DNA from: an uncultured Gammaproteobacteria bacterium
GTDB lineage: Bacteria > Patescibacteriota > Patescibacteriia > VMEV01 > CAZAJQ01
DNA length: 64,000 bases
Assembly (NCBI GenBank): GCA_964485795.1
Contig: CAZAJQ010000006.1
Location: 9,716 to 73,715, forward strand
Direction: 5' to 3'
The notes beneath the pieces were generated by a model. It ran no database searches. It was not told the origin of the DNA and saw only the letters and a list, made by a program, of their open reading frames with translations. The position numbers were made by a program, and so were the translations under genes. Shown piece by piece: positions 1-40,201 of the stretch (positions within the stretch are counted from its first letter, which is position 1; every line of letters begins with the position of its first letter).

Positions 1-620
1 GACTTGGTCGCCGAAATCATCGCTTTCTCTTTTGACGGTCGTTTCTTTGCGCAAAAAATGACATTTTCATTGCCAAGTCTTCTCACGATTTCGGATACGA
101 GTTCATGGGCACCCCGATCCGGCGCCACCAAAACCGCTTGGCTCATTTCCAAAGGAATCTGTAGAATGACGTGTGTAAGAATATCGGCGCCGCTGATCTC
201 GAAAAGCGCTTTTCTTCCAATATACGAACGAACTCGATCGCTGTGAAGATGGCAGGATATGATAATATCAGCTCCGGATTTTTTGAGCATATTGGCCATC
301 AATCGCGCTGTGATCGGCTCTCCTGGCTCAACGATGCGATCCTGCTTTTCATAGGCGAAATACGGAAGAAGAAGATATATTTTCTTCGCACCGTTTTCCC
401 GTAAGGCGTTGAGAAGCACGCAAAGCTTGAAAAAATGATCGCAAGGAGGGATCGTCTCCGAGAAGACCGCGACATCTTTACCTTTCACCCCTTCCAATAC
501 CTTGATCATGATTTCTCCGTCGGAAAACTGCATCTCCTCCATATTCGCGGAGGAAAAGTATCCCGACTTCAAAAGCGCTTTTTTATAATCTTCATTGTTT
601 GATAGCGAGAAGAGAAGCAT
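1..620 (-). CDS. prs: ribose-phosphate pyrophosphokinase (PRPP synthetase), partial; C-terminus lies beyond the window start
   Basis: Minus-strand translation from an ATG at 620 gives MLLFSLSNNEDYKKALLKSGYFSSANMEEMQFSDGEIMIKVLEGVKGKDVAVFSE...KIYLLLPYFAYEKQDRIVEPGEPITARLMANMLKKSGADIIISCHLHS. This matches the Prs N-terminal domain, including the RFSDGE-like and PYFGYARQDRK-like motifs. The frame is open to position 1. This ORF is absent from the supplied track because it is partial. Confidence 0.75.
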   Translation of the reverse strand, partial: MLLFSLSNNEDYKKALLKSGYFSSANMEEMQFSDGEIMIKVLEGVKGKDVAVFSETIPPCDHFFKLCVLLNALRENGAKKIYLLLPYFAYEKQDRIVEPGEPITARLMANMLKKSGADIIISCHLHSDRVRSYIGRKALFEISGADILTHVILQIPLEMSQAVLVAPDRGAHELVSEIVRRLGNENVIFCAKKRPSKEKAMISATK

Positions 621-668
621 AGGTTCATTTCTTTTGGAACTCAAAAAATATGATCGATCATAATCGCG

Positions 669-1337
669 TCATGATGACGGCCGTGCAAGGTGCGAATTAA
701 AACGATTTCGTGCGATTTCCAATAATTGTTTCACCTCATCATCTTCCACCTGCCGGAAATCCTTGTAAAAAGCGCCTACGGAACCAAACAGCCGAGGAGC
801 GTCAAGAAAAATGAGCTCGTCGCACAACGATTGCATTTCGGAAACCAGTTCGTGCGGCAAGACGGGAACGGCGACGACGATCTTTTTTGCACCGTGTCGC
901 TTCGCATACGCTATCGCGGCCTTCATGGTGTATCCCGTGGCAATGCCGTCGTCAACGAGTATGACCGCCGAATCCTTCAAGGGATACGATTTTCTTCCGG
1001 CTCTCAGGAGATGTTCTTTTGCCATGATTTTTGAGAGAATTTCTTTTTGTTTTTGGACGATATATTCTTTTGAAATGCCATACTCGGCAATCATGGATTC
1101 ATTCAGCATGGCGCAATCTTTCGAAGCGATGGCTCCGATCGCGAGCTCCTCATTTCCCGGGGCTGGTATTTTTTTACTGACGATGATATCCAAAGGAGCC
1201 GACAGATATTCCGATATTTCAAACGCCGGCACCACGCCTCCTCGGGGCAATCCGATGATAAGCGCATCCTTGCCTCGATAGAGAAGAAGTTTTTTGGCCA
1301 GCACATCCCCGGCTTCCTTTCGATCATGAAACATCAT
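669..1337 (-). CDS. phosphoribosyltransferase-domain protein (COG1926-like predicted PRTase)
   Basis: 222-aa ORF. It has a PRTase-fold PRPP-binding loop ILVDDGIATGYTMKAAI and an N-terminal LIIGLPRGGVVPAFEIS segment. It lies directly upstream of prs on the same strand. Confidence 0.65.
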   Translation of the reverse strand: MMFHDRKEAGDVLAKKLLLYRGKDALIIGLPRGGVVPAFEISEYLSAPLDIIVSKKIPAPGNEELAIGAIASKDCAMLNESMIAEYGISKEYIVQKQKEILSKIMAKEHLLRAGRKSYPLKDSAVILVDDGIATGYTMKAAIAYAKRHGAKKIVVAVPVLPHELVSEMQSLCDELIFLDAPRLFGSVGAFYKDFRQVEDDEVKQLLEIARNRFNSHLARPSS

Positions 1338-1486
1338 AAGTTTTCTTTAATTGCTTTCATTATATGACAAGAACTGCTGATGCGACAGATGGGCGATGCG
1401 AACTCTTGTAAAATTCCATCTCTCGCGTTTTCTATCAAATTTTATTTGCCTTTGACGGTGCTTTTTGTCAGACTTATGAAGTTCTA

Positions 1487-1514
1487 TTGCAATTTCATTC
1501 AATCGGTTCATAAT
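1487..1514 (+). promoter_or_regulatory. candidate sigma70-type promoter for tRNA-Arg (TTGCAA-16-CATAAT)
   Basis: TTGCAA at 1487-1492 and CATAAT at 1509-1514 with a 16-nt spacer. The tRNA 5' end at 1523 is 8 nt downstream of the -10 hexamer. Confidence 0.4.
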
Positions 1515-1522
1515 CGACTCAT

Positions 1523-1597
1523 GTCCCTATAGTTTAATGGATAAAACACAGGTTTCCGAAGCCTGCGATGGAGGTTCGATTCCCCCTGGGGACACCA
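1523..1597 (+). tRNA. tRNA-Arg (anticodon CCG), CCA encoded
   Basis: Cloverleaf read by eye. Acceptor stem GTCCCTA/TGGGGAC. D-arm GTTT-AATGGATA-AAAC. Anticodon stem CAGGT/GCCTG with loop TTCCGAA, giving anticodon CCG. T-arm GGAGG-TTCGATT-CCCCC with one A.C mismatch. Discriminator A followed by CCA. Confidence 0.8.
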
Positions 1598-1640
1598 ATC
1601 ATTTTCATACATTTCCTCCAAAATAATATTCATGTCAATA

Positions 1641-1676
1641 AAAAAAAACAGGAAAGATCGTATTCTTCCCTGTTTG
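1641..1676 (-). terminator. intrinsic terminator downstream of the 765-aa ORF
   Basis: On the minus strand: ACAGGGAAGA-ATACGA-TCTTTCCTGT hairpin followed by a run of nine T. It sits immediately 3' of the stop at 1683. Confidence 0.5.
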
Positions 1677-1682
1677 GTATGG

Positions 1683-3980
1683 TCAATAAATATCTTTTCT
1701 ATCTTCCACATAAAAATAGAAATGATCCCCCTCAAGTTTGAAAAGGATTCGAAGCGGATCGCAGCGTAACCTCCACAACCCGCGGGTTTTCCCGATAAGT
1801 CCATTTACTTTTCGCTGGAGTCGCATCCTGTCGCTGGGTGTGGCCAAGAGATATCCGGCGATTTTTTCCAATATCTTCTCACCAGAAATGGAAAATCCGA
1901 ATGGCTCAAAATACACTGCGAATGCTTCACAGGTTGGTTCAATGATTTCAAAAGCGCTGAAATCTTTACCTTTGCTGATCTCGAGCGTATACACTACCGG
2001 TGATACCTCTACAGCATCGATGACCGGCTTATCCTTCTCATCCCATTCACGCCCTTCGTATTTCCGCTTTCTCCTGCCGGTTTGAAAATCAGATTTTTTT
2101 TGTCCGTCCTTTCTTTCCAAGAGCATATCTCTCACAGTGAGGCAGACAAGCTCGAGAAACAGTGCACGAAAATTATCGCTCACTTTTTCTCGCCAGCTCA
2201 CTTCCACAAGTTTTCTTGCAAGCTGCTCTTCGAAATCGCTTCCATGAAATGTTTTTCCTCCGGATGAAAAAAAATTTTCTTCGCATTGGGCAATCTTCTT
2301 GCATTGTGAAAACATTTTCACTATTTTACTGCCCAAGGTAAAATACTTCTTCCCAAACGCATCGTTGATCTCTTTCCTATCGGCTTCAATCAGACTGAAA
2401 AAACGATCTTGCGATTTTTCAAAAGCTCTTTCCTTGTCCTTCATTGAAACATCAACGAGCATTTGTGAGGCTCGAAAAATCAAATATTCAAAAATCTCGG
2501 TGAGATCGTTTACGTTCGTATAACGACGCTCATGTCCAAAAAACTCGGAAATCATGGCGGACTCTTTTTCCGGATATTTGCTGATATAGTGGCGCAAATC
2601 CGCTAATGAGCTCAAGGCATTTTCTTTCTCCTTGATTGCCATAGTTCGCCGCTCTTTTTCGAGTTCATTTCGCCGGCTGACATCGTCTTTGCGTCCCAGG
2701 AGCGAACTGAATTTCCCCAGCTTTGGAGCGATTTCCAATGCTCTCTCATAGAGTTTTTTCCCGACAAGGAGCGCAAAAAGGCAATCCATCTCATGCTCGT
2801 GCCGCTTATTGGGCTGAATCATGACTATCTTCTCAACGGGAAGTTTTTGAAATTTTCCCGCCCATTCATAAAGGCTTTGTGATTCGTCCTTCAGTAATTG
2901 GGCGAAGCCCAGTGACGCAAATTCCTCTCGGAATTTGAGGTATTCGATAACTTCAGACACATCATGTCTTCTCCCTTCATACATGCTATCCAAAGCTTCA
3001 ACATATTTTTTTCTCCTTGCCTCCAGCTCTAGGTCGTGTCGTTTTATCACCGCTGATTCAAGCTCATCATATCGCTCCCAATAAAGGAAATAGATGACTT
3101 GATCGATGAGTTTTTCGTATGATTCCTTCTCTTGAGACCGCTCCGTTGCCTCATCATAATAGGTAACCGTTTTTTGCAGCGTCTCAAAATCGTCGTCATA
3201 CGCCGCCGTCATGATTTTCAGCAGCACCTTGAGCAGGTAGGACGGGCACATGACAGACAGATTCACCGCCTTGATCAAGGCATGCATGGTACCGTCGTCC
3301 AAAAAACTCAACAAATCCGGAATGTCTTTCACACCTTCGAAAAATCGACATTTCATCTTCCATTGAGCCACGATGCGCCGAAGCAAGCCCTCATTTTCCA
3401 TCAATTCACCGCAATATTCCAGAAAAGTATCCATGTCATTGTTATCGGTTTTCGATGCATTGACTCGAAAATCAAATAACTTGCAAATGCTGTTCCATTC
3501 CCCCAGCCAAAATGAAAAGCACATTGCGCATGTTCTTTTTTCAAGCATTATATTCTCTCTCCCACATGTGGAAATATAATCTGCCATGACCATCTGAAAT
3601 TCTTCCTTCATGCCATAACAAAAATAGGTGAATAATCCTTCTTGCTGATAGTGAATGGAGCTTGGATTACATTTTCGCGCAGCGGCGACCAGTGCCAGCC
3701 TCATCTCTTTTTTTTCACTTTCTTTCACTATGACCTGTTCATCCATAAGCAAAGAGAAAGCATTATCAAACATGAGCTCGGTCGGAGGTGGCGACAATTC
3801 TATCGCCTTCATATAGCATCTCAAAGCGCTCACATACTTTCTCTTCAGAAAATTGAGATCTCCGGCGAGATGCATGGGATTGATCGTCCCGTCAATTTTC
3901 AGTTTCACTTTTTTCATGATACGTTCCTTTTTAAACTGTAACGAAACATTCCAAAACAACAATTTTTTATTGTAACCCAT
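1683..3980 (-). CDS. large hypothetical protein (up to 765 aa; likely ATG at 3917 giving MKKVKLKID...) with a C-terminal RelE/ParE-fold toxin-like domain
   Basis: Uninterrupted 2.3-kb ORF. The N-terminal 650 aa are mostly helical and include a TPR-like start (YVSALRCYMKAIELSP). The last 100 aa, VYTLEISKGKDF...GLWRLRCDPLRILFKLEGDHFYFYVEDRKDIY, align with the RelE/ParE consensus (…LYRIRVGDYRIIYEIDDENKIIYILKIGHRKDVY), including the conserved Arg residues and terminal Tyr. Confidence 0.6.
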   Translation of the reverse strand: MGYNKKLLFWNVSLQFKKERIMKKVKLKIDGTINPMHLAGDLNFLKRKYVSALRCYMKAIELSPPPTELMFDNAFSLLMDEQVIVKESEKKEMRLALVAAARKCNPSSIHYQQEGLFTYFCYGMKEEFQMVMADYISTCGRENIMLEKRTCAMCFSFWLGEWNSICKLFDFRVNASKTDNNDMDTFLEYCGELMENEGLLRRIVAQWKMKCRFFEGVKDIPDLLSFLDDGTMHALIKAVNLSVMCPSYLLKVLLKIMTAAYDDDFETLQKTVTYYDEATERSQEKESYEKLIDQVIYFLYWERYDELESAVIKRHDLELEARRKKYVEALDSMYEGRRHDVSEVIEYLKFREEFASLGFAQLLKDESQSLYEWAGKFQKLPVEKIVMIQPNKRHEHEMDCLFALLVGKKLYERALEIAPKLGKFSSLLGRKDDVSRRNELEKERRTMAIKEKENALSSLADLRHYISKYPEKESAMISEFFGHERRYTNVNDLTEIFEYLIFRASQMLVDVSMKDKERAFEKSQDRFFSLIEADRKEINDAFGKKYFTLGSKIVKMFSQCKKIAQCEENFFSSGGKTFHGSDFEEQLARKLVEVSWREKVSDNFRALFLELVCLTVRDMLLERKDGQKKSDFQTGRRKRKYEGREWDEKDKPVIDAVEVSPVVYTLEISKGKDFSAFEIIEPTCEAFAVYFEPFGFSISGEKILEKIAGYLLATPSDRMRLQRKVNGLIGKTRGLWRLRCDPLRILFKLEGDHFYFYVEDRKDIY

Positions 3981-4089
3981 TCAATAATTATTGTCAAAAT
4001 ATCTTTTTATTATGGACTATCATTAGCGATAACAAAAAAATCTCCATAAAGAGATTTTTTTGCGAGTGATTTTAAAAAAGAATGGATTT

Positions 4090-4329
4090 TTATTTTTTCA
4101 TCATGTCCATCCCGGAACACATCATGCAATCCTTTTTATGCGTTACGAGAATATACAGAGCCGAAAGACCGACAGCCGCATAAATGACACGCGCAACCGT
4201 TGAGCTCATGCCTCCGAGAAGAGACGCTACGAGGTCGTATTGAAAAAATCCGACCAATCCCCAGTTAAGTCCTCCGATAAGAAGCAGGAGGAAAGCAAGC
4301 ATATGGAGTCCGCTTTTGTTTTGGGACAT
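4090..4329 (-). CDS. DUF378-family small membrane protein
   Basis: 79 aa with two predicted TM helices. The motif LLLLIGGLNWGLVGFFQYDLVASLLGG matches the DUF378 signature (INWGLVG…FDLVA…GG). Confidence 0.55.
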   Translation of the reverse strand: MSQNKSGLHMLAFLLLLIGGLNWGLVGFFQYDLVASLLGGMSSTVARVIYAAVGLSALYILVTHKKDCMMCSGMDMMKK

Positions 4330-4814
4330 AAATGAAATAAATTAAGAATAAAAAAGCTTAGAGATGATGAACTTTATTTATAATAGCATCATCGCTACGG
4401 ATATCATAATTTTTGTCAAGGATTTTAAAGAATCAGCATGGCATCCCCAAACGAGTAGAGATGGTATCTCTCCGCAATAGCAAATCGGTCATCAATATAT
4501 CGACGATTCGAAAATCACATGAGGAACGAAAAAGAATATCCTCCTTGAGCAGATCTATCGCGCAACGACGATTCTTCGAGGGAAAGAGTATCATCATTGA
4601 TATCGACCATCAATGCATTTGACGCAGCATCACCCCATTTGATACATTTTCTGATAAAGAAGGCTCACTTCTTCTTTTTTAATTGATCCAATATTTCGTC
4701 ATGCTACATTTTTTCTGAGATGACTGCAGAAAACAAAAAAAATCTGTAACCATTCCATGTCCATGCAAAATTTATTCTCAGTGAACCGTTTTTGAGCAAT
4801 AATTTTCTCTCTAT

Positions 4815-17512: not shown

Positions 17513-18874
<1,362 letters not shown>

Positions 18875-18897
18875 TCACATTTAAAAAATTTCAATCT

Positions 18898-19018
18898 GAG
18901 ACTGTAGAAAAAGGATGAAATACGAAGCTCTGGAGTGAGCAGATTGGGAAAGATATGTGTTATATCTTGAGCAATCTGCGTAGCGAAGAGCGAGTAGTTC
19001 GCATTTTGCTACAGTCTC
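18898..19018 (+). mobile_element. MITE-like non-autonomous element, family B, copy A (121 bp, 16-bp terminal inverted repeats, 5-bp direct repeat AATCT on both flanks)
   Basis: Ends GAGACTGTAGAAAAAGG...CATTTTGCTACAGTCTC. AATCT occurs at 18893-18897 and again at 19019-23. It is nearly identical (a few mismatches) to the reverse complement of 38643-38763. No ORF fits inside. Confidence 0.6.
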
Positions 19019-19050
19019 AATCTCTAAAATATTTCTCATCATGTAAATTT

Positions 19051-19974
19051 CTAATAGGCTGCTTCGAGCGCCAATTTCCCCGACGATATTTCCGCGATTT
19101 CTTGTGTGATGGCCGCTTGGCGAGCGGAGTTAAGATCCAGCGTCAAACCTTTCAACATATCCGAAGCGGCGTCCGTGGCGTTTTTCATGGTCAACATGCG
19201 AGCCGAATGTTCGCTCGCGTCAGACTCGAGCACGGCCTGATACACCTGCATTTCGATAAGCCGCGGAATAAGCGCGTCGAGCACCGACGAAGCCGATGGT
19301 TCAAAACGAAATTCGCGGTGATAGGTATCTCCCGTGAATATGGAACCCGCCGAACTTTTCGCAAGAATATCCCCAAACATCTCCTCAGCCGCCGCATCAA
19401 AAGGCAAAAGTTGTTTGACTCGTACCCTCTGCTTTCCGGCCGACACAAAATCCGTATAGATGAGAATGACCTTATCGTAGACCCTTTCTCGATATTTTGA
19501 AATCAGCATTTCGCTCATGGGCAAAACCTCCACCATGCTCGTCAAAACATCCGGCTTGGGAAAATCCGCCACAACCTTACGTTTTTCCCGCAAAAGCATA
19601 TCCCTCACTTTCTTCCCATATGTTATGCATTCGATCGTTTTGCGAACATATTCCTGCTCCATGAGAGAGATTGTTTTCTCGAAAATCTTGGTATTGAACG
19701 CTCCGCACAGTCCTCGATTTGAGCCGATGATGAGCATGGCAACGCTTTCGCTACGTTCATCTTTCCGCAATAAAACATGAGAACGAGGATCGGTTTTTTC
19801 CAAAAGATCGAGAAGAATCTGCCAGGCGAGGGATGCATACGGACGGGTCGAAAGAGCGTTTTGTACGGCGCGACGCATTTTGGACGCAGAAACAAGCTCC
19901 ATGGCTTTGGTGATTTTCTTGGTATTTTTCACCGATTTTATCCGAGTTCGAATTTCTTTCAATGCGCCTGGCAT
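19051..19974 (-). CDS. atpG: F0F1 ATP synthase subunit gamma
   Basis: MPGALKEIRTRIKSVKNTKKITKAMELVSASKMRRAVQN is the gamma-subunit N-terminus. The start is placed at the internal Met, not the longer track ORF. Confidence 0.9.
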   Translation of the reverse strand: MPGALKEIRTRIKSVKNTKKITKAMELVSASKMRRAVQNALSTRPYASLAWQILLDLLEKTDPRSHVLLRKDERSESVAMLIIGSNRGLCGAFNTKIFEKTISLMEQEYVRKTIECITYGKKVRDMLLREKRKVVADFPKPDVLTSMVEVLPMSEMLISKYRERVYDKVILIYTDFVSAGKQRVRVKQLLPFDAAAEEMFGDILAKSSAGSIFTGDTYHREFRFEPSASSVLDALIPRLIEMQVYQAVLESDASEHSARMLTMKNATDAASDMLKGLTLDLNSARQAAITQEIAEISSGKLALEAAY

Positions 19975-19999
19975 GGGAGTAAAAAAAATTACAAAAAAT

Positions 20000-21526
20000 T
20001 TATTGCGTCTCTTGCTGATGTTTTTCCAAAAAAATCTTCTTGGCATCATTGATCACTTCTTGCAATTTCTTTTCGGTGTCGGAGGTAATATGCTTTTCTT
20101 TCACGATCGATTCATACACCTCTTTCGCGTTATTCTCCATGTATTCCAAAAAGAAAAGCTCAAACGATTTCACGGATTCCTTGGGAATGTCGTCCATGTA
20201 CCCATTCACCACGGCGTAGAGCACCACCACTTGTTTTTCGACATCATAGAGATCGTACTGGTTTTGCTTCAAAATTTCGATGGTGCGACTGCCACGGTTC
20301 AGCGTTTTTTTCGTGGCCTCGTCAAGCTCGGAACCGAACTGCGCAAAAGCCGCCAATTCCTGATATTGGGCGAGACTCAGCTTCAGCTTGCCCGCAACCT
20401 GCTTCATGGCTTTGATCTGCGCCGCCGACCCCACGCGCGAAACGGATAATCCGACATTGACCGCGGGTCTCACTCCCTTATAGAAAAGATCGGTTTCAAG
20501 GTAAATTTGCCCGTCGGTGATGGAGATGACATTGGTCGGAATATACGCGGAAACGTCTCCGGCCAATGTTTCGATGATCGGAAGCGCGGTGATGGAGCCG
20601 CCCCCATAGTCTTCATGGATGCGAGCCGCGCGTTCCAAAAGACGTGAATGGAGGTAAAAAATGTCACCCGGATACGCCTCGCGTCCCGGTGGACGTTTCA
20701 GCAGCAATGAAAGCTGGCGATAGGCCACGGCATGTTTCGAGAGGTCATCATAGATGATCAACACGTCTTTTCCCTTATCCATGAAGTATTCGGCCATGGC
20801 CACACCCGCATAGGGCGCCAAAAACGAAAATGAAGCCGGCTCAGAAGCTCCGGCAATGATCACGATCGTATGATCCATGGCCGCATGCGTTTCAAGCTTT
20901 GATACGATTTTTGCAATTTTGGATTCTTTTTGACCTATCGCGACGTAGATGCAAATCACGTTTTTTCCCTTTTGATTGATGATGGTATCTATGGCAAGCG
21001 CGGTTTTTCCGGTTTGTCGGTCTCCGATGATCAATTCGCGCTGCCCGCGACCGATGGGAATCATGGCGTCAATCGACTTGATGCCGGTTTGCAAGGGAAC
21101 AGTCACCGACTTTCGTTTGATCACGCCCGGAGCGATCTTTTCGATCGGATAATACGTTTTGGTGGCGATTTTGGATCGACCGTCAATGGGTTGTCCCAAA
21201 GGATTCAGCACACGCCCCACCAAGGCGTCCGATACCGGCACTTCGAGAATTCGATCCGTCTTTTTCACCTCATCGCCTACCTTTATGAGACTGTAATCAC
21301 CCAAAATCATGGCTCCGATGCGCCCCATGTCAAGATTCAGCACCACGCCCATGACTCCATGACCAAAGTCCAACATTTCCGACATTTTTGCGCCCGAAAG
21401 TCCCGCAATCGCCGCAATGCCGTCTCCGATTTCAACGACCACTCCAAGCTCTTCAAATCGTTCGGAAAGATCCAACGTACCAAGTTCCTTTTTAATGCTG
21501 TCAATAAGTTCTATTTTTGAGTGCAT
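20000..21526 (-). CDS. atpA: F0F1 ATP synthase subunit alpha
   Basis: P-loop GDRQTGKTA and the conserved alpha-subunit core. Confidence 0.95.
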
Positions 21527-38169: not shown

Positions 38170-38607
38170 TTATTTCAAAACTACCTTTCCTCCGGCCGCT
38201 TCGATCTTTTTCTTCATCTCTTCGGCTTCCTCCTTTTTAACGTTTTCTTTGAGCACTTTCGGAGCCTTATCCGTAAGATCTTTGGCGTCTTTGAGACCAA
38301 GACCCGTGATTTCACGAACAACCTTGATAACATTGATCTTGCTTGATCCGGCATCCGTAAGCTCGACCGTAAACTCGCTTTTTTCTTCGGCAGGAGCGGC
38401 TGCACCAGCGGCCGCCGGCATGGCACCCATCGCCATCATGGGAGCGGCAGCTGAAACTCCGAATTTTTTCTCAAGTACGGATACCAGCTCGGAAAGATCC
38501 AGAACGCTGAGCTGCTCAATTTGTGAAACGAGATTCTGAAATTTGGCCGGAACCTCGACTTTGGTTTCAGTCGCGGCGGATTCCATCGTGGGATTTTGAT
38601 CTGACAT
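38170..38607 (-). CDS. rplL: 50S ribosomal protein L7/L12
   Basis: N-terminal dimerisation helix, an Ala/Pro-rich hinge ([20 protein letters not shown]), and the C-terminal domain [53 protein letters not shown]. Confidence 0.9.
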
Positions 38608-38642
38608 AGGGGTATATTAGAAATTACCAATGAATAGGGGTT

Positions 38643-38763
38643 GAGACTGTAGAAAAATGCGAACTACTCGCTCTTCGCTACGCAGATTGCTCAAGATACA
38701 ACACATATCTTTCCCAATCTGCTCGCTCCAGAGCTTCGTATTTCATCATTTTTCTACAGTCTC
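38643..38763 (-). mobile_element. MITE-like non-autonomous element, family B, copy B (121 bp, inverted relative to copy A, flanked by the 5-bp direct repeat GGGTT)
   Basis: GAGACTGTAGAAAAATG...CATTTTTCTACAGTCTC. GGGTT occurs at 38638-38642 and 38764-38768. Its reverse complement is nearly identical to 18898-19018. It lies in the rplL-rplJ intergenic region. Confidence 0.6.
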
Positions 38764-38776
38764 GGGTTATAAAAAT

Positions 38777-39322
38777 TTATGCCGCTTTTTTGTCTTTCAC
38801 GGCTGATAAAACGTAGACCAATGACCTCAGATTACCAGCGAGGACATTGACCATGCCTGACAAGGGCGATGCAATGCTAGAAACGACTTTTGCCAAAAGA
38901 ACTTCTCTTGCCGGAATATTTGCCAAAGCTTGGGTTTGCACGGCATCAAGCATGCGCTGTCCGGAAGGGCTCGCGGTCAAAACCGACGCCACCATCTCAA
39001 AAGGCTCATGGGTTTTGCCAAACTCCTTGGCAAGTTTTGCTCCCGTCACCTCGTCGGCATAACTCATGATCACGGCCAATTCTTTGCGACTCACGACCGT
39101 CGGGTCAATATCGGACATTTGGGCGGCTTCAAAAGCCTTTCGAAGCAGGGTCTTTTTGGCAACCAGATATTCTGAATTTTCCAGCTTGACCTTGCGGCGC
39201 AATGTCTCCAGCTCAGAAACCGGAATGCCGCTGAATTGCACAAAAACAACGCTTTTTGCGGTTTGAAGCTTCCGAACAAGCTTCTGAATGATTTCGGACT
39301 TGTGTTGCTTGGAAATGGGCAT
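38777..39322 (-). CDS. rplJ: 50S ribosomal protein L10
   Basis: MPISKQHKSEIIQKLVRKLQTAKSVVFVQFSGIPVSELETLRRKV matches the L10 N-terminus. It lies upstream of rplL. Confidence 0.9.
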   Translation of the reverse strand: MPISKQHKSEIIQKLVRKLQTAKSVVFVQFSGIPVSELETLRRKVKLENSEYLVAKKTLLRKAFEAAQMSDIDPTVVSRKELAVIMSYADEVTGAKLAKEFGKTHEPFEMVASVLTASPSGQRMLDAVQTQALANIPAREVLLAKVVSSIASPLSGMVNVLAGNLRSLVYVLSAVKDKKAA

Positions 39323-39467: not shown

Positions 39468-40169
39468 TCACTGGGAGCGATTTGAGAGAATACTTCCGAC
39501 AAACGTACCATGAAGCAAAAAATTCCGAACACGGGACCATTTTTTCCCGTTCATCATAAGCACCTCGATATCGAGGCGCTCCGCAAGCGCTGAGGCGATT
39601 GCATCAAAAGGAACATGAGCTCCGGGATTCCATGTTTTGGGCGTTATGTTTCGATAGGTTTTCCACAACAGCCTTTTTTGTTTTTTTGCATCCGTAAAAA
39701 TATTCGGATCTTTGTCGTATACATAGTCGATATTGGAAAGATTGAGAATTTTCCGCGCTCCATATGTCTTCGCCAAAGTCACGGCCACAAAATCCGTGGA
39801 CCATCCCGGACGAGATCCGCCCGCAAATACGACGCTATGCTCCGGCCATGTATCGAATTTTTCCGGATCGGTGATAATGTCCGACACGCTCAGATCTCCG
39901 AAAGAAAAAAGAAAAAAATGCGCGTTGATACGTGTCGCCAAAATACCGATAAAATCCTTTTCTTCGGGACGCGCATCACAAACTTTGGTCAATGATCGCT
40001 GGTACTCACGCGCCACTTTGCCGCCTCCGGTAACAATGAAAATATTGCGGTAGTGCTTCCTTATCTCCGCCAATAGACTTCGCATTTTTTTCAAAAAAAT
40101 AACATCCACATTTTCATCGCATATCACGGATCCTCCCAAAGAAATAATAAGGCTTTCTTGTTGATTCAT
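39468..40169 (-). CDS. pyrH: UMP kinase
   Basis: Amino-acid-kinase fold motifs IISLGGSV...FIVTGGGKVAREY...ATRINA. Confidence 0.85.
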   Translation of the reverse strand: MNQQESLIISLGGSVICDENVDVIFLKKMRSLLAEIRKHYRNIFIVTGGGKVAREYQRSLTKVCDARPEEKDFIGILATRINAHFFLFSFGDLSVSDIITDPEKFDTWPEHSVVFAGGSRPGWSTDFVAVTLAKTYGARKILNLSNIDYVYDKDPNIFTDAKKQKRLLWKTYRNITPKTWNPGAHVPFDAIASALAERLDIEVLMMNGKKWSRVRNFLLHGTFVGSILSNRSQ

Positions 40170-40201
40170 AGTATGGTTACATTCACGCTTTCTCAAAATA
40201 C

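What the first reader, a model, noticed from the sequence alone, without database searches (positions are those of the whole stretch)
38643..38763. Second copy of the family-B MITE between rplL and rplJ, inverted, with a different 5-bp duplication (GGGTT)
The reverse complement of 38643-38763 is nearly identical to 18898-19018, with a handful of substitutions. The flanks carry GGGTT on both sides (38638-38642 and 38764-38768). A different duplicated pentamer at each locus is the expected signature of independent insertion events rather than segmental duplication. Both copies lie in short intergenic spacers of highly expressed essential operons (atp, and the rplJ-rplL ribosomal pair). This suggests either insertion-site preference for transcribed AT-rich spacers or selection against insertions elsewhere in a compact genome.
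Basis: seen in the sequence. Interest (0 to 1): 0.65.

Follow-up and report, generated by a model that had tools for sequence, protein, structure and literature searches.

The report
Hairpin MITE inserted between rplJ and rplL
The 121-base element between two ribosomal-protein genes is a real miniature transposon, the non-coding passenger of an IS5-type insertion sequence common in groundwater Patescibacteria: an ordinary kind of element in a little-studied group.

Summary

- **The element.** Window 38643-38763 is a 121-nt element with perfect 17-nt terminal inverted repeats (GAGACTGTAGAAAAATG). It is flanked by GGGTT on both sides.
- **The second copy.** It is 96.7% identical, in inverted orientation, to 18898-19018, which is flanked by AATCT and lies between atpG and atpD.
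- **The family.** Public scans found about 60 distinct elements of 105-134 nt with the same termini. Most records carry Patescibacteria-type names or are unlabelled groundwater contigs. 40 of 59 have flush 5- or 6-bp direct repeats (3.4% expected by chance), and about 84% lie between genes. The target consensus is T|A-N3/4-T|A.
- **The autonomous partner.** I found 1261-1271-bp insertion sequences with the same termini and 5-bp duplications. They encode a 335-346-aa DDE transposase (DUF772 + DDE_Tnp_1, above NCBIfam's IS5_4 cutoff). One transposase sequence occurs in at least 10 genomic contexts.
- **What the element is not.** It encodes nothing, matches no Rfam family, and resembles the IS only over the terminal 17-19 nt.
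- **Function.** The two window copies face opposite ways relative to transcription, which argues against a strand-specific RNA role.
- **Not shown.** The copy number in the source genome, an empty-site allele, and any effect on rplJ-rplL expression.

It is a new member of a known kind, of modest interest.

The parts
38643..38763 (.). MITE copy B (121 nt, non-coding, near-perfect hairpin)
   Evidence: It folds at -61.8 kcal/mol (z -10.4) on the transcribed (-) strand and -48.9 kcal/mol on the + strand. The 49-aa ORF at 38657-38806 has no Pfam hit. There is no Rfam match.
38643..38659 (+). Terminal inverted repeat, rplL-proximal end (GAGACTGTAGAAAAATG)
   Evidence: Of the two ends, this one matches the transposase-proximal end of the partner IS over 17 nt, compared with 19 nt for the other end.
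38747..38763 (-). Terminal inverted repeat, rplJ-proximal end; read on the - strand it is GAGACTGTAGAAAAATGAT..., matching the IS end over 19 nt
38638..38642 (.). Target-site duplication GGGTT (left copy)
   Evidence: The repeat cannot be extended to 6 bp (GGGGTT vs GGGTTA).
38764..38768 (.). Target-site duplication GGGTT (right copy); 8 nt lie between it and the rplJ stop codon
38170..38607 (-). rplL (L7/L12). The ATG at 38607 lies 35 nt from the element; NCBI calls the start at 38586.
38777..39322 (-). rplJ (L10); its stop codon at 38777-38779 lies 13 nt from the element
18898..19018 (.). MITE copy A, in opposite orientation, with 4 substitutions relative to B and one mismatch in its right TIR
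18893..18897 (.). Target-site duplication AATCT of copy A (left)
19019..19023 (.). Target-site duplication AATCT of copy A (right)
17513..18868 (-). atpD (F1 beta), 29 nt from copy A
19051..20049 (-). atpG (F1 gamma), 32 nt from copy A

Best explanation
The element is a non-autonomous miniature inverted-repeat transposable element (MITE). It has 17-nt inverted ends and a 121-nt hairpin body, and it encodes nothing.

Its ends are the ends of a 1.26-1.27-kb IS5-family insertion sequence that is common in groundwater Patescibacteria. That IS encodes a 335-346-aa DDE transposase. The transposase, supplied in trans, binds the two ends, moves the element, and joins it to target DNA cut with a 5-nt (sometimes 6-nt) stagger. 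Repair of the stagger produces the duplicated GGGTT here and AATCT at the atp copy. The preferred target is an AT-rich palindrome, T|A-N3/4-T|A. That preference, together with loss of gene-disrupting insertions, places copies in short spacers.

Copy B expanded the rplJ-rplL spacer from about 43 to 169 nt. It is presumably co-transcribed as a self-contained, very stable RNA hairpin that leaves the neighbouring translation start free, and so is tolerated.

Shown: the anatomy, the family-wide duplications, the partner IS with identical ends and 5-bp duplications, and the intergenic bias.

Inferred: mobilisation in trans, co-transcription, and neutrality.
For: - Two copies at 96.7% identity share exact boundaries at the inverted repeats and have different flush pentamers.
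- About 60 distinct elements share the termini: 24 have 5-bp and 16 have 6-bp flush repeats out of 59, against a 3.4% chance rate.
- A 121-nt metagenomic subfamily shares the extended ends GAGACTGTAGAAAAATGATGA...CGCATTTTTCTACAGTCTC but has a different interior.
- Full-length IS copies:
  - L056 61-1329 carries a 346-aa ORF with DUF772 + DDE_Tnp_1. It scores 145 bits on NCBIfam IS5_4 against a cutoff of 140.
  - The P0134 IS is 1271 bp and occurs in at least 10 contexts. Its left and right flank 5-mers pair up as AAGAT, AAAAC, AATTT and AAATT.
  - The P0194 IS is 1261 bp with the perfect 15-nt TIR, and shows ATGTT|IS|ATGTT on a single contig.
- Homologues of the transposase are named as coming from Patescibacteria, Uhrbacteria and Sungbacteria MAGs.
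- The IS and MITEs co-occur in assembly ERZ1292645.
- 61 of 73 elements are intergenic.
- There is no Rfam match. Promoter-like and terminator-like sites are not above shuffle expectation.
- The two window copies are in opposite orientation relative to their operons.
Against: - No transposase homologue occurs in the window or in about 15 kb of extra flank, and the rest of the source MAG could not be read. A partner in this genome, and the genome-wide copy number, are therefore unknown; only 2 copies were seen in about 79 kb.
- No empty-site allele or close relative was available, since the nearest RplJ is 51% identical.
- GGGTT is off-consensus: it is the only one of the 24 five-bp duplications that starts with G rather than A.
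- MITE-IS similarity is limited to the terminal 17-19 nt, so the body is not a deletion derivative of the IS copies examined.
- Twelve of the 58 family copies tallied lack any flush repeat.
Confidence: 0.9

Rival explanations
1. A functional RNA element, either domesticated or evolved in place. The hairpin would act in the rplJ-rplL and atpG-atpD transcripts as an RNase III processing site, a stabiliser or an attenuator that sets the relative expression of the flanking genes. This reading does not exclude a MITE origin.
For: - The hairpin is very stable (-61.8 kcal/mol, z -10).
- Both copies sit inside essential, presumably co-transcribed operons.
- In copy B a small hairpin followed by a U-run (GCGAGUAGUUCGC AUUUUUC) is in the sense orientation for rplJL.
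- Family interiors fold well even without the TIRs: z<-3 in 44 of 60.
- Correia elements are cleaved by RNase III at their TIRs (PMC10969869, PMC2649163).
Against: - The two copies are in opposite orientation relative to transcription, so the sense-strand motif of copy B is antisense at atp.
- Terminator-like hits are not above shuffle expectation (3 found vs 1.5±1.2).
- The 4 substitutions between the copies are not compensatory.
- There is no Rfam match.
- Elements elsewhere flank unrelated genes.
Confidence: 0.1
2. A repeat spread by recombination or segmental duplication rather than by transposition.
For: Only two copies were seen in the accessible sequence of the source genome.
Against: - Homology stops exactly at the inverted repeats and the flanks are unrelated.
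- Each copy has its own flush pentamer.
- The same ends bound a transposase-encoding IS with 5-bp duplications.
Confidence: 0.02
3. A REP/REPIN-type palindromic element moved by a RAYT (HUH, single-strand) transposase.
For: The element is a long imperfect palindrome, is intergenic, and folds on either strand.
Against: - By established knowledge, REPINs make no target duplications and pair with RAYT genes.
- Here 40 of 59 copies have 5- or 6-bp duplications.
- The matching autonomous element encodes a DDE_Tnp_1 transposase.
Confidence: 0.02

Closest known systems
IS5 family insertion sequences (IS5 group, e.g. IS5 and ISAba23), as the autonomous partner
   Same: - One ORF with a DUF772 N-terminal domain and a DDE_Tnp_1 catalytic domain.
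- Above the NCBIfam IS5_4 cutoff.
- Best named tblastn relatives are ISAba23-like IS5 elements.
- Size of about 1.2-1.3 kb, short TIRs starting GAG, and a TA-containing palindromic target.
   Different: - Only about 30% identity to ISAba23.
- Duplications are 5-6 bp. From my own knowledge of ISfinder's subgroup table, not checked here, IS5 makes 4 bp, IS1031 3 bp, IS427 2-4 bp and IS903 9 bp.
- The raw score is higher on the IS1182 model, but it is below that model's cutoff.
Correia elements (CREE/NEMIS) of Neisseria
   Same: Both are hairpin MITEs of about 100-150 bp with TIRs, lie between genes and are co-transcribed with neighbours. Correia RNA is cleaved by RNase III at the TIRs (PMC10969869, PMC2649163), which gives a plausible model for what copy B could do in rplJL mRNA.
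   Different: - No sequence similarity.
- Correia elements duplicate TA (own knowledge), create promoters and carry an IHF site (PMC2649163). No promoter-like site was found here.
- No autonomous partner is known for Correia (own knowledge), whereas one was found here.
Chunjie MITE of Geobacter uraniireducens
   Same: [quoted passage not shown] 2008).
   Different: It is 178-235 bp and comes from an unrelated host.
TIMEs (Tn3-derived inverted-repeat miniature elements)
   Same: Both are non-coding with a 5-bp duplication and a preference for AT-rich targets (own knowledge).
   Different: Tn3-family ends are about 38 bp and start GGGG (own knowledge). Here the ends are 15-17 nt starting GAGAC, and the matching transposase is IS5-type.

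Membership tests
MITE (prokaryotic miniature inverted-repeat transposable element) | Short (about 50-500 bp) with no coding capacity | tested here: met
   The element is 121 nt. Its only ORF, 49 aa, runs out of the element and has no Pfam hit.
MITE (prokaryotic miniature inverted-repeat transposable element) | Terminal inverted repeats | tested here: met
   Copy B has perfect 17-nt TIRs; copy A matches 14 of 15 on one side.
MITE (prokaryotic miniature inverted-repeat transposable element) | Target-site duplications that differ between copies | tested here: met
   GGGTT and AATCT in the window. 40 of 59 family members have flush 5- or 6-bp repeats, against 3.4% by chance.
MITE (prokaryotic miniature inverted-repeat transposable element) | Multiple dispersed copies in a genome | tested here: inconclusive
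   There are 2 copies in about 79 kb of the source genome, and the other contigs of GCA_016204025.1 could not be read. Other MAGs carry more: the Saccharibacteria-labelled MAG CAYHZE01 has at least 8 copies and one 7.8-kb contig has 3.
MITE (prokaryotic miniature inverted-repeat transposable element) | An autonomous element with matching ends | tested here: met
   1261-1271-bp IS copies carry the same 15-19-nt ends and 5-bp duplications. None was found in the source window.
MITE (prokaryotic miniature inverted-repeat transposable element) | Empty-site evidence (same locus without the element) | not testable with these tools
   The nearest RplJ relative is 51% identical. Logan contigs from two samples both contain the junction.
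IS5 family (for the partner IS) | DDE_Tnp_1 transposase with a DUF772 N-terminal domain, passing a curated IS5 model | tested here: met
   Pfam DUF772 at 3.7e-19 and DDE_Tnp_1 at 3.8e-18. NCBIfam IS5_4 scores 145.3 bits against a cutoff of 140.
IS5 family (for the partner IS) | Duplication length typical of a described subgroup (2-4, 8 or 9 bp; own knowledge of ISfinder) | tested here: not met
   The IS copies make 5-bp duplications and the MITEs 5- or 6-bp. This matches no described subgroup length as I recall them, and the recollection is not verified.
IS1182 family (for the partner IS) | Passes the curated IS1182 transposase model | tested here: not met
   202.6 bits against a cutoff of 270, matched in 3 stretches.
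REP/REPIN elements | No target duplication; associated RAYT (HUH) transposase | tested here: not met
   Duplications are present and the partner is a DDE enzyme.
Intrinsic terminator or known structured RNA | GC-rich stem followed directly by a U-run, or a match to an Rfam model | tested here: not met
   The full hairpin is followed by AACCCCU on the transcribed strand. Only a 5-pair internal mini-stem is called, not above shuffles. Rfam returned nothing at E up to 10 except a chance snoRNA hit.

The most novel reading that the evidence does not exclude
The element belongs to a previously undescribed IS5-subgroup-plus-MITE system that spans Patescibacteria. Its features would be 5-6-bp duplications, a T|A-N3/4-T|A target, and hairpin bodies kept palindromic under selection. 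On this reading, copies inside essential operons, such as the one between rplJ and rplL, have been co-opted as RNA processing or stability elements that uncouple expression of the flanking genes in these reduced genomes.
Probability: 0.12. Interest if true: 0.55.

Novelty: new member of a known kind. Interest (0 to 1): 0.33.

Why it matters
Patescibacteria (CPR) have very small genomes and are usually thought to be poor in mobile DNA. I found no description of MITEs or of this IS in the searchable literature.

- **Active mobile DNA in reduced genomes.** An IS5-type element and its hairpin MITEs are widespread in groundwater members of the group and can sit inside the rplJ-rplL and atp operons. 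Transposition therefore still shapes these genomes.
- **Assembly breaks.** The family gives a concrete cause of contig breaks in CPR MAGs. Logan contigs stop inside the element, and the IS collapses to contigs of about 1.3 kb.
- **Practical uses.** It offers strain markers and a defined transposase and end pair that could be tested as a genetic tool for organisms that currently have none.
- **Limits.** The biology itself, a MITE with target-site duplications and an autonomous partner, is textbook.

Tried and rejected
1. **Own subfamily in metagenomes.** An exact 22-mer from the interior of our subfamily gave 0 hits in JGI metagenomes. The subfamily was seen only in the source population.
2. 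**Empty site through close relatives.** The best RplJ relative is 51% identical, so no alignable orthologous spacer exists. Exact-protein look-ups of RplJ and RplL gave only the source MAG and Logan contigs that all contain the junction.
3. **Autonomous partner in the first 42 genome loci.** None was found. An apparent 1.8-kb TIR pair in L019 encloses sucC and was rejected. Solo TIRs in L008 and L034 are degenerate MITEs.
4. **Transposase in the source.** tblastn of three family transposases against the window plus L099 and L102 gave no hits.
5. **Extra copies.** None were found in about 15 kb outside the window, and blastn-short found no degenerate remnants in the window.
6. **Rfam.** The gathering-threshold and E-value scans matched nothing for this element.
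7. **Promoters and terminators.** Nothing was above shuffle expectation.
8. **Literature.** Searches on the TIR decamer returned only unrelated primer matches. No paper links MITEs or IS elements to CPR.
9. **Solved structures.** No PDB relative of the transposase was found by sequence.
10. **MITE as deletion derivative.** Rejected, because similarity to the IS ends at 17-19 nt.

Full report
**1. Observation**

The sequence is as described.

- Window 38643-38763 is 121 nt. Its reverse complement aligns without gaps to 18898-19018, with 4 substitutions (blastn 96.7%, E=1e-56).
- Both ends of copy B are GAGACTGTAGAAAAATG, perfectly inverted. Copy A has one mismatch in its right repeat.
- The 15-mer at up to 2 mismatches occurs only at these four ends. 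The expectation was 0.15, and none of 100 shuffles reached 4.
- GGGTT flanks copy B at 38638-38642 and 38764-38768. AATCT flanks copy A at 18893-18897 and 19019-19023. Similarity stops at the repeats.
- Pfam confirms the neighbouring genes:

| Gene | Coordinates | Position relative to the element |
|---|---|---|
| rplJ | 38777-39322(-) | stop codon 13 nt from copy B |
| rplL | 38170-38607(-) | ATG 35 nt from copy B |
| atpG | 19051-20049(-) | 32 nt from copy A |
| atpD | 17513-18868(-) | 29 nt from copy A |

- Removing the element plus one pentamer shrinks the rplJ-rplL spacer from 169 to 43 nt, and the atpG-atpD spacer from 182 to 56 nt.

**2. Source**

- RplJ is 100% identical to a protein of NCBI MAG GCA_016204025.1, a 'Parcubacteria group bacterium', on contig JACQLO010000005.1 of 99 kb. 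The next relative is 51% identical.
- The window matches that contig at an offset of +4359.
- Independent Logan assemblies of SRR12113383 and SRR12113384 contain both junctions. Their contigs stop 39-41 nt inside the element, at the position where copies A and B differ, which is expected for a repeat. The element is therefore not an assembly artefact.
- No empty allele was seen.

**3. Anatomy**

- The element folds as one near-perfect hairpin on either strand. On the strand transcribed with rplJ-rplL it reaches -61.8 kcal/mol (z -10.4); on the other strand, -48.9 kcal/mol.
- It matches no Rfam family.
- It has no promoter-like site. Its only terminator-like feature is a 5-pair internal mini-stem that is not above shuffle expectation.
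- The full hairpin is followed by AACCCCU, not a U-run.
- The two copies face opposite ways relative to their operons. The four substitutions between them are not compensatory. Both points argue against a strand-specific RNA function.

**4. The family**

- A scan of species-representative genomes for GAGACTGTAG-N85-115-CTACAGTCTC returned 42 loci. A metagenome scan with the 15-mer returned 54.
- After removing redundancy and unrelated hits, about 60 distinct elements of 105-134 nt share the 15-17-nt ends.
- The labelled records are mostly Patescibacteria-type: Saccharibacteria, Uhrbacteria, Kerfeldbacteria, Vogelbacteria, Parcubacteria and 'Patescibacteria group'. Some third-party (TPA) MAGs are labelled Gammaproteobacteria, a label I did not verify. 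The remaining contigs are unlabelled groundwater sequences.
- A 121-nt metagenomic subfamily shares our extended ends (GAGACTGTAGAAAAATGATGA ... CGCATTTTTCTACAGTCTC) but has a different interior. Overall identity to our element is 70-74%.
- Our exact subfamily was not found elsewhere.

**5. Target duplications and target site**

- Among 59 non-redundant copies, 24 have flush 5-bp and 16 have flush 6-bp direct repeats. Unrelated left and right flanks from the same set match at only 3.4%.
- The repeats vary in sequence, so they are target DNA and not part of the element.
- The reconstructed target is T|A-N-W-W-T|A for 5 bp and T|A-W-N-N-W-T|A for 6 bp.
- Copy B's GGGTT is the one 5-bp case that starts with G.
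- 61 of 73 elements overlap no ORF of 100 aa or more, and many sit within a few to tens of nt of a gene end.

**6. The autonomous partner**

- Solo ends in L056 led to a 1269-bp element at 61-1329 with the same termini. It carries one 346-aa ORF with DUF772 + DDE_Tnp_1. NCBIfam IS5_4 scores 145 bits against a cutoff of 140, while IS1182 scores 203 bits against a cutoff of 270. A 119-nt MITE lies 5 nt from it.
- The transposase has more than 200 close homologues at 64-89% identity. Nearly all are on contigs of about 1.2-1.5 kb, as expected for a collapsed repeat. NCBI names place several in Patescibacteria, Uhrbacteria and Sungbacteria MAGs.
- One exact sequence, P0134, lies in at least 10 different gene contexts. 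Its IS is 1271 bp. Across those partly chimeric contigs, the left and right flank 5-mers pair up as AAGAT, AAAAC, AATTT and AAATT.
- The P0194 IS is 1261 bp with the perfect 15-nt TIR of our MITE. It shows ATGTT|IS|ATGTT on a single contig, and one copy sits 39 nt upstream of rpsM.
- This IS and several MITEs occur in the same Hainich assembly, ERZ1292645.
- A 69%-identical relative with variant ends, GAGTCTGGTGAAAAATGAT, is present in an Uhrbacteria MAG from SRR12113383, the sample that holds our organism.
- MITE-IS similarity is limited to the terminal 17-19 nt. The closest named IS in plasmid records is ISAba23-like, of the IS5 family, at 30% identity.

**7. Mechanism**

- Shown: TIRs, variable duplications, a partner IS with identical ends and 5-bp duplications, multi-context copies of that IS, and the intergenic bias.
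- Inferred from the established behaviour of DDE transposases and MITEs:
  - the IS5-type enzyme acts in trans on the 17-nt ends;
  - target cleavage has a 5-nt (sometimes 6-nt) stagger;
  - the AT-rich palindromic target, plus selection against gene disruption, accounts for placement in spacers;
  - the element is co-transcribed in the rplJL and atp mRNAs;
  - a self-contained hairpin is tolerated because it leaves the adjacent start region unpaired.
- A regulatory role like that of Correia elements, which RNase III cleaves (PMC10969869, PMC2649163), remains possible. The orientation data disfavour it.

**8. Limits**

- No transposase homologue occurs in the window or in about 15 kb of extra flank.
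- The rest of the MAG was unreadable with these tools.
- Only two copies are documented in the source genome.
- No empty site is available.

**9. Verdict**

The element is a new member of a known kind: a MITE with an IS5-family partner. I found no prior description in the searchable literature.

Noticed in passing
window 39903-39910: The window differs from NCBI contig JACQLO010000005.1, and from two Logan assemblies, only here. The window reads GAAAGAAAAAAG where they read GAATGCCATGCG. That is 6 substitutions in 8 nt inside the AA_kinase (pyrH-like) gene 39468-40196(-), changing RMA to LFS. The cluster is odd and unexplained.
   Followed up: partly
window 1-4359: The window maps to the NCBI contig at an offset of +4359. 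The protein encoded at 669-1337 is found only on Logan contigs, not in that record. The window therefore seems to come from another, longer assembly of the same population. Logan contig L099 ends in Nextera adapter sequence.
   Followed up: partly
Three elements of about 110-116 nt occur in the window (I2, I14, I25, D4, D5).
   Followed up: no
L019, L021, L025, L040 (8-bp repeats); L012, L028, L038, L043, L054 (AAC): Other hairpin elements share only the outer decamer GAGACTGTAG but have different duplications. Elements in Planctomycetota, Alcaligenaceae and an unclassified-bacterium MAG have 8-bp repeats. Elements in Spirochaetia, Pseudoalteromonas and a Gammaproteobacteria MAG are always flanked by the 3-bp repeat AAC. 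They may be MITEs of other IS groups with similar ends.
   Followed up: no
L014, L018, L042 (contig CBDHHR010000759.1): A Metamycoplasmataceae-labelled contig is filled with tandem repeats of 71-nt period that contain the decamer. The repeats switch orientation along the contig, which produced spurious pattern hits.
   Followed up: no
L041 1295-1412, L072 24-142, L096 1576-1694, L061 3221-3338: A 118-119-nt subfamily begins with a 33-nt unit made of two TIRs back to back (GAGACTGTAGAAAAACTnTTTTTCTACAGTCTC). This is followed by a GC hairpin and a third TIR, and the whole element is flanked by a 5-bp repeat.
   Followed up: no
L045 2475-2557, L047 927-1067, L091 2294-2455, L078 111-226: Interiors of some 120-130-nt subfamilies give sub-threshold Rfam hits of 31-40 bits to MIR1512, Aggregatibacter sRNA 41 and Wolbachia sRNA 46. 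Separately, the motif AGCGTAGCGAAG recurs in 12-13 of the 60 family interiors, including ours. This suggests a widely shared palindromic module, and possibly that those Rfam families are themselves repeat hairpins.
   Followed up: partly
L056 61-1453; L120 367-1627; L126 1-1178: Three observations on the full-length IS. In L056 a MITE lies 5 nt from it. In L120 a copy sits 39 nt upstream of rpsM. In a Sungbacteria MAG from the same groundwater study, the transposase is split into 266-aa and 79-aa ORFs and lies next to a HicAB pair.
   Followed up: partly
window 38608-38642 and 18869-18897: No Shine-Dalgarno-like sequence precedes the rplL or atpD start codons. The upstream sequences read ...TAATATACCCCT-ATG and ...AAATGTGAACAAGT-ATG. 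The start of rplL is ambiguous between 38607 and NCBI's 38586.
   Followed up: no
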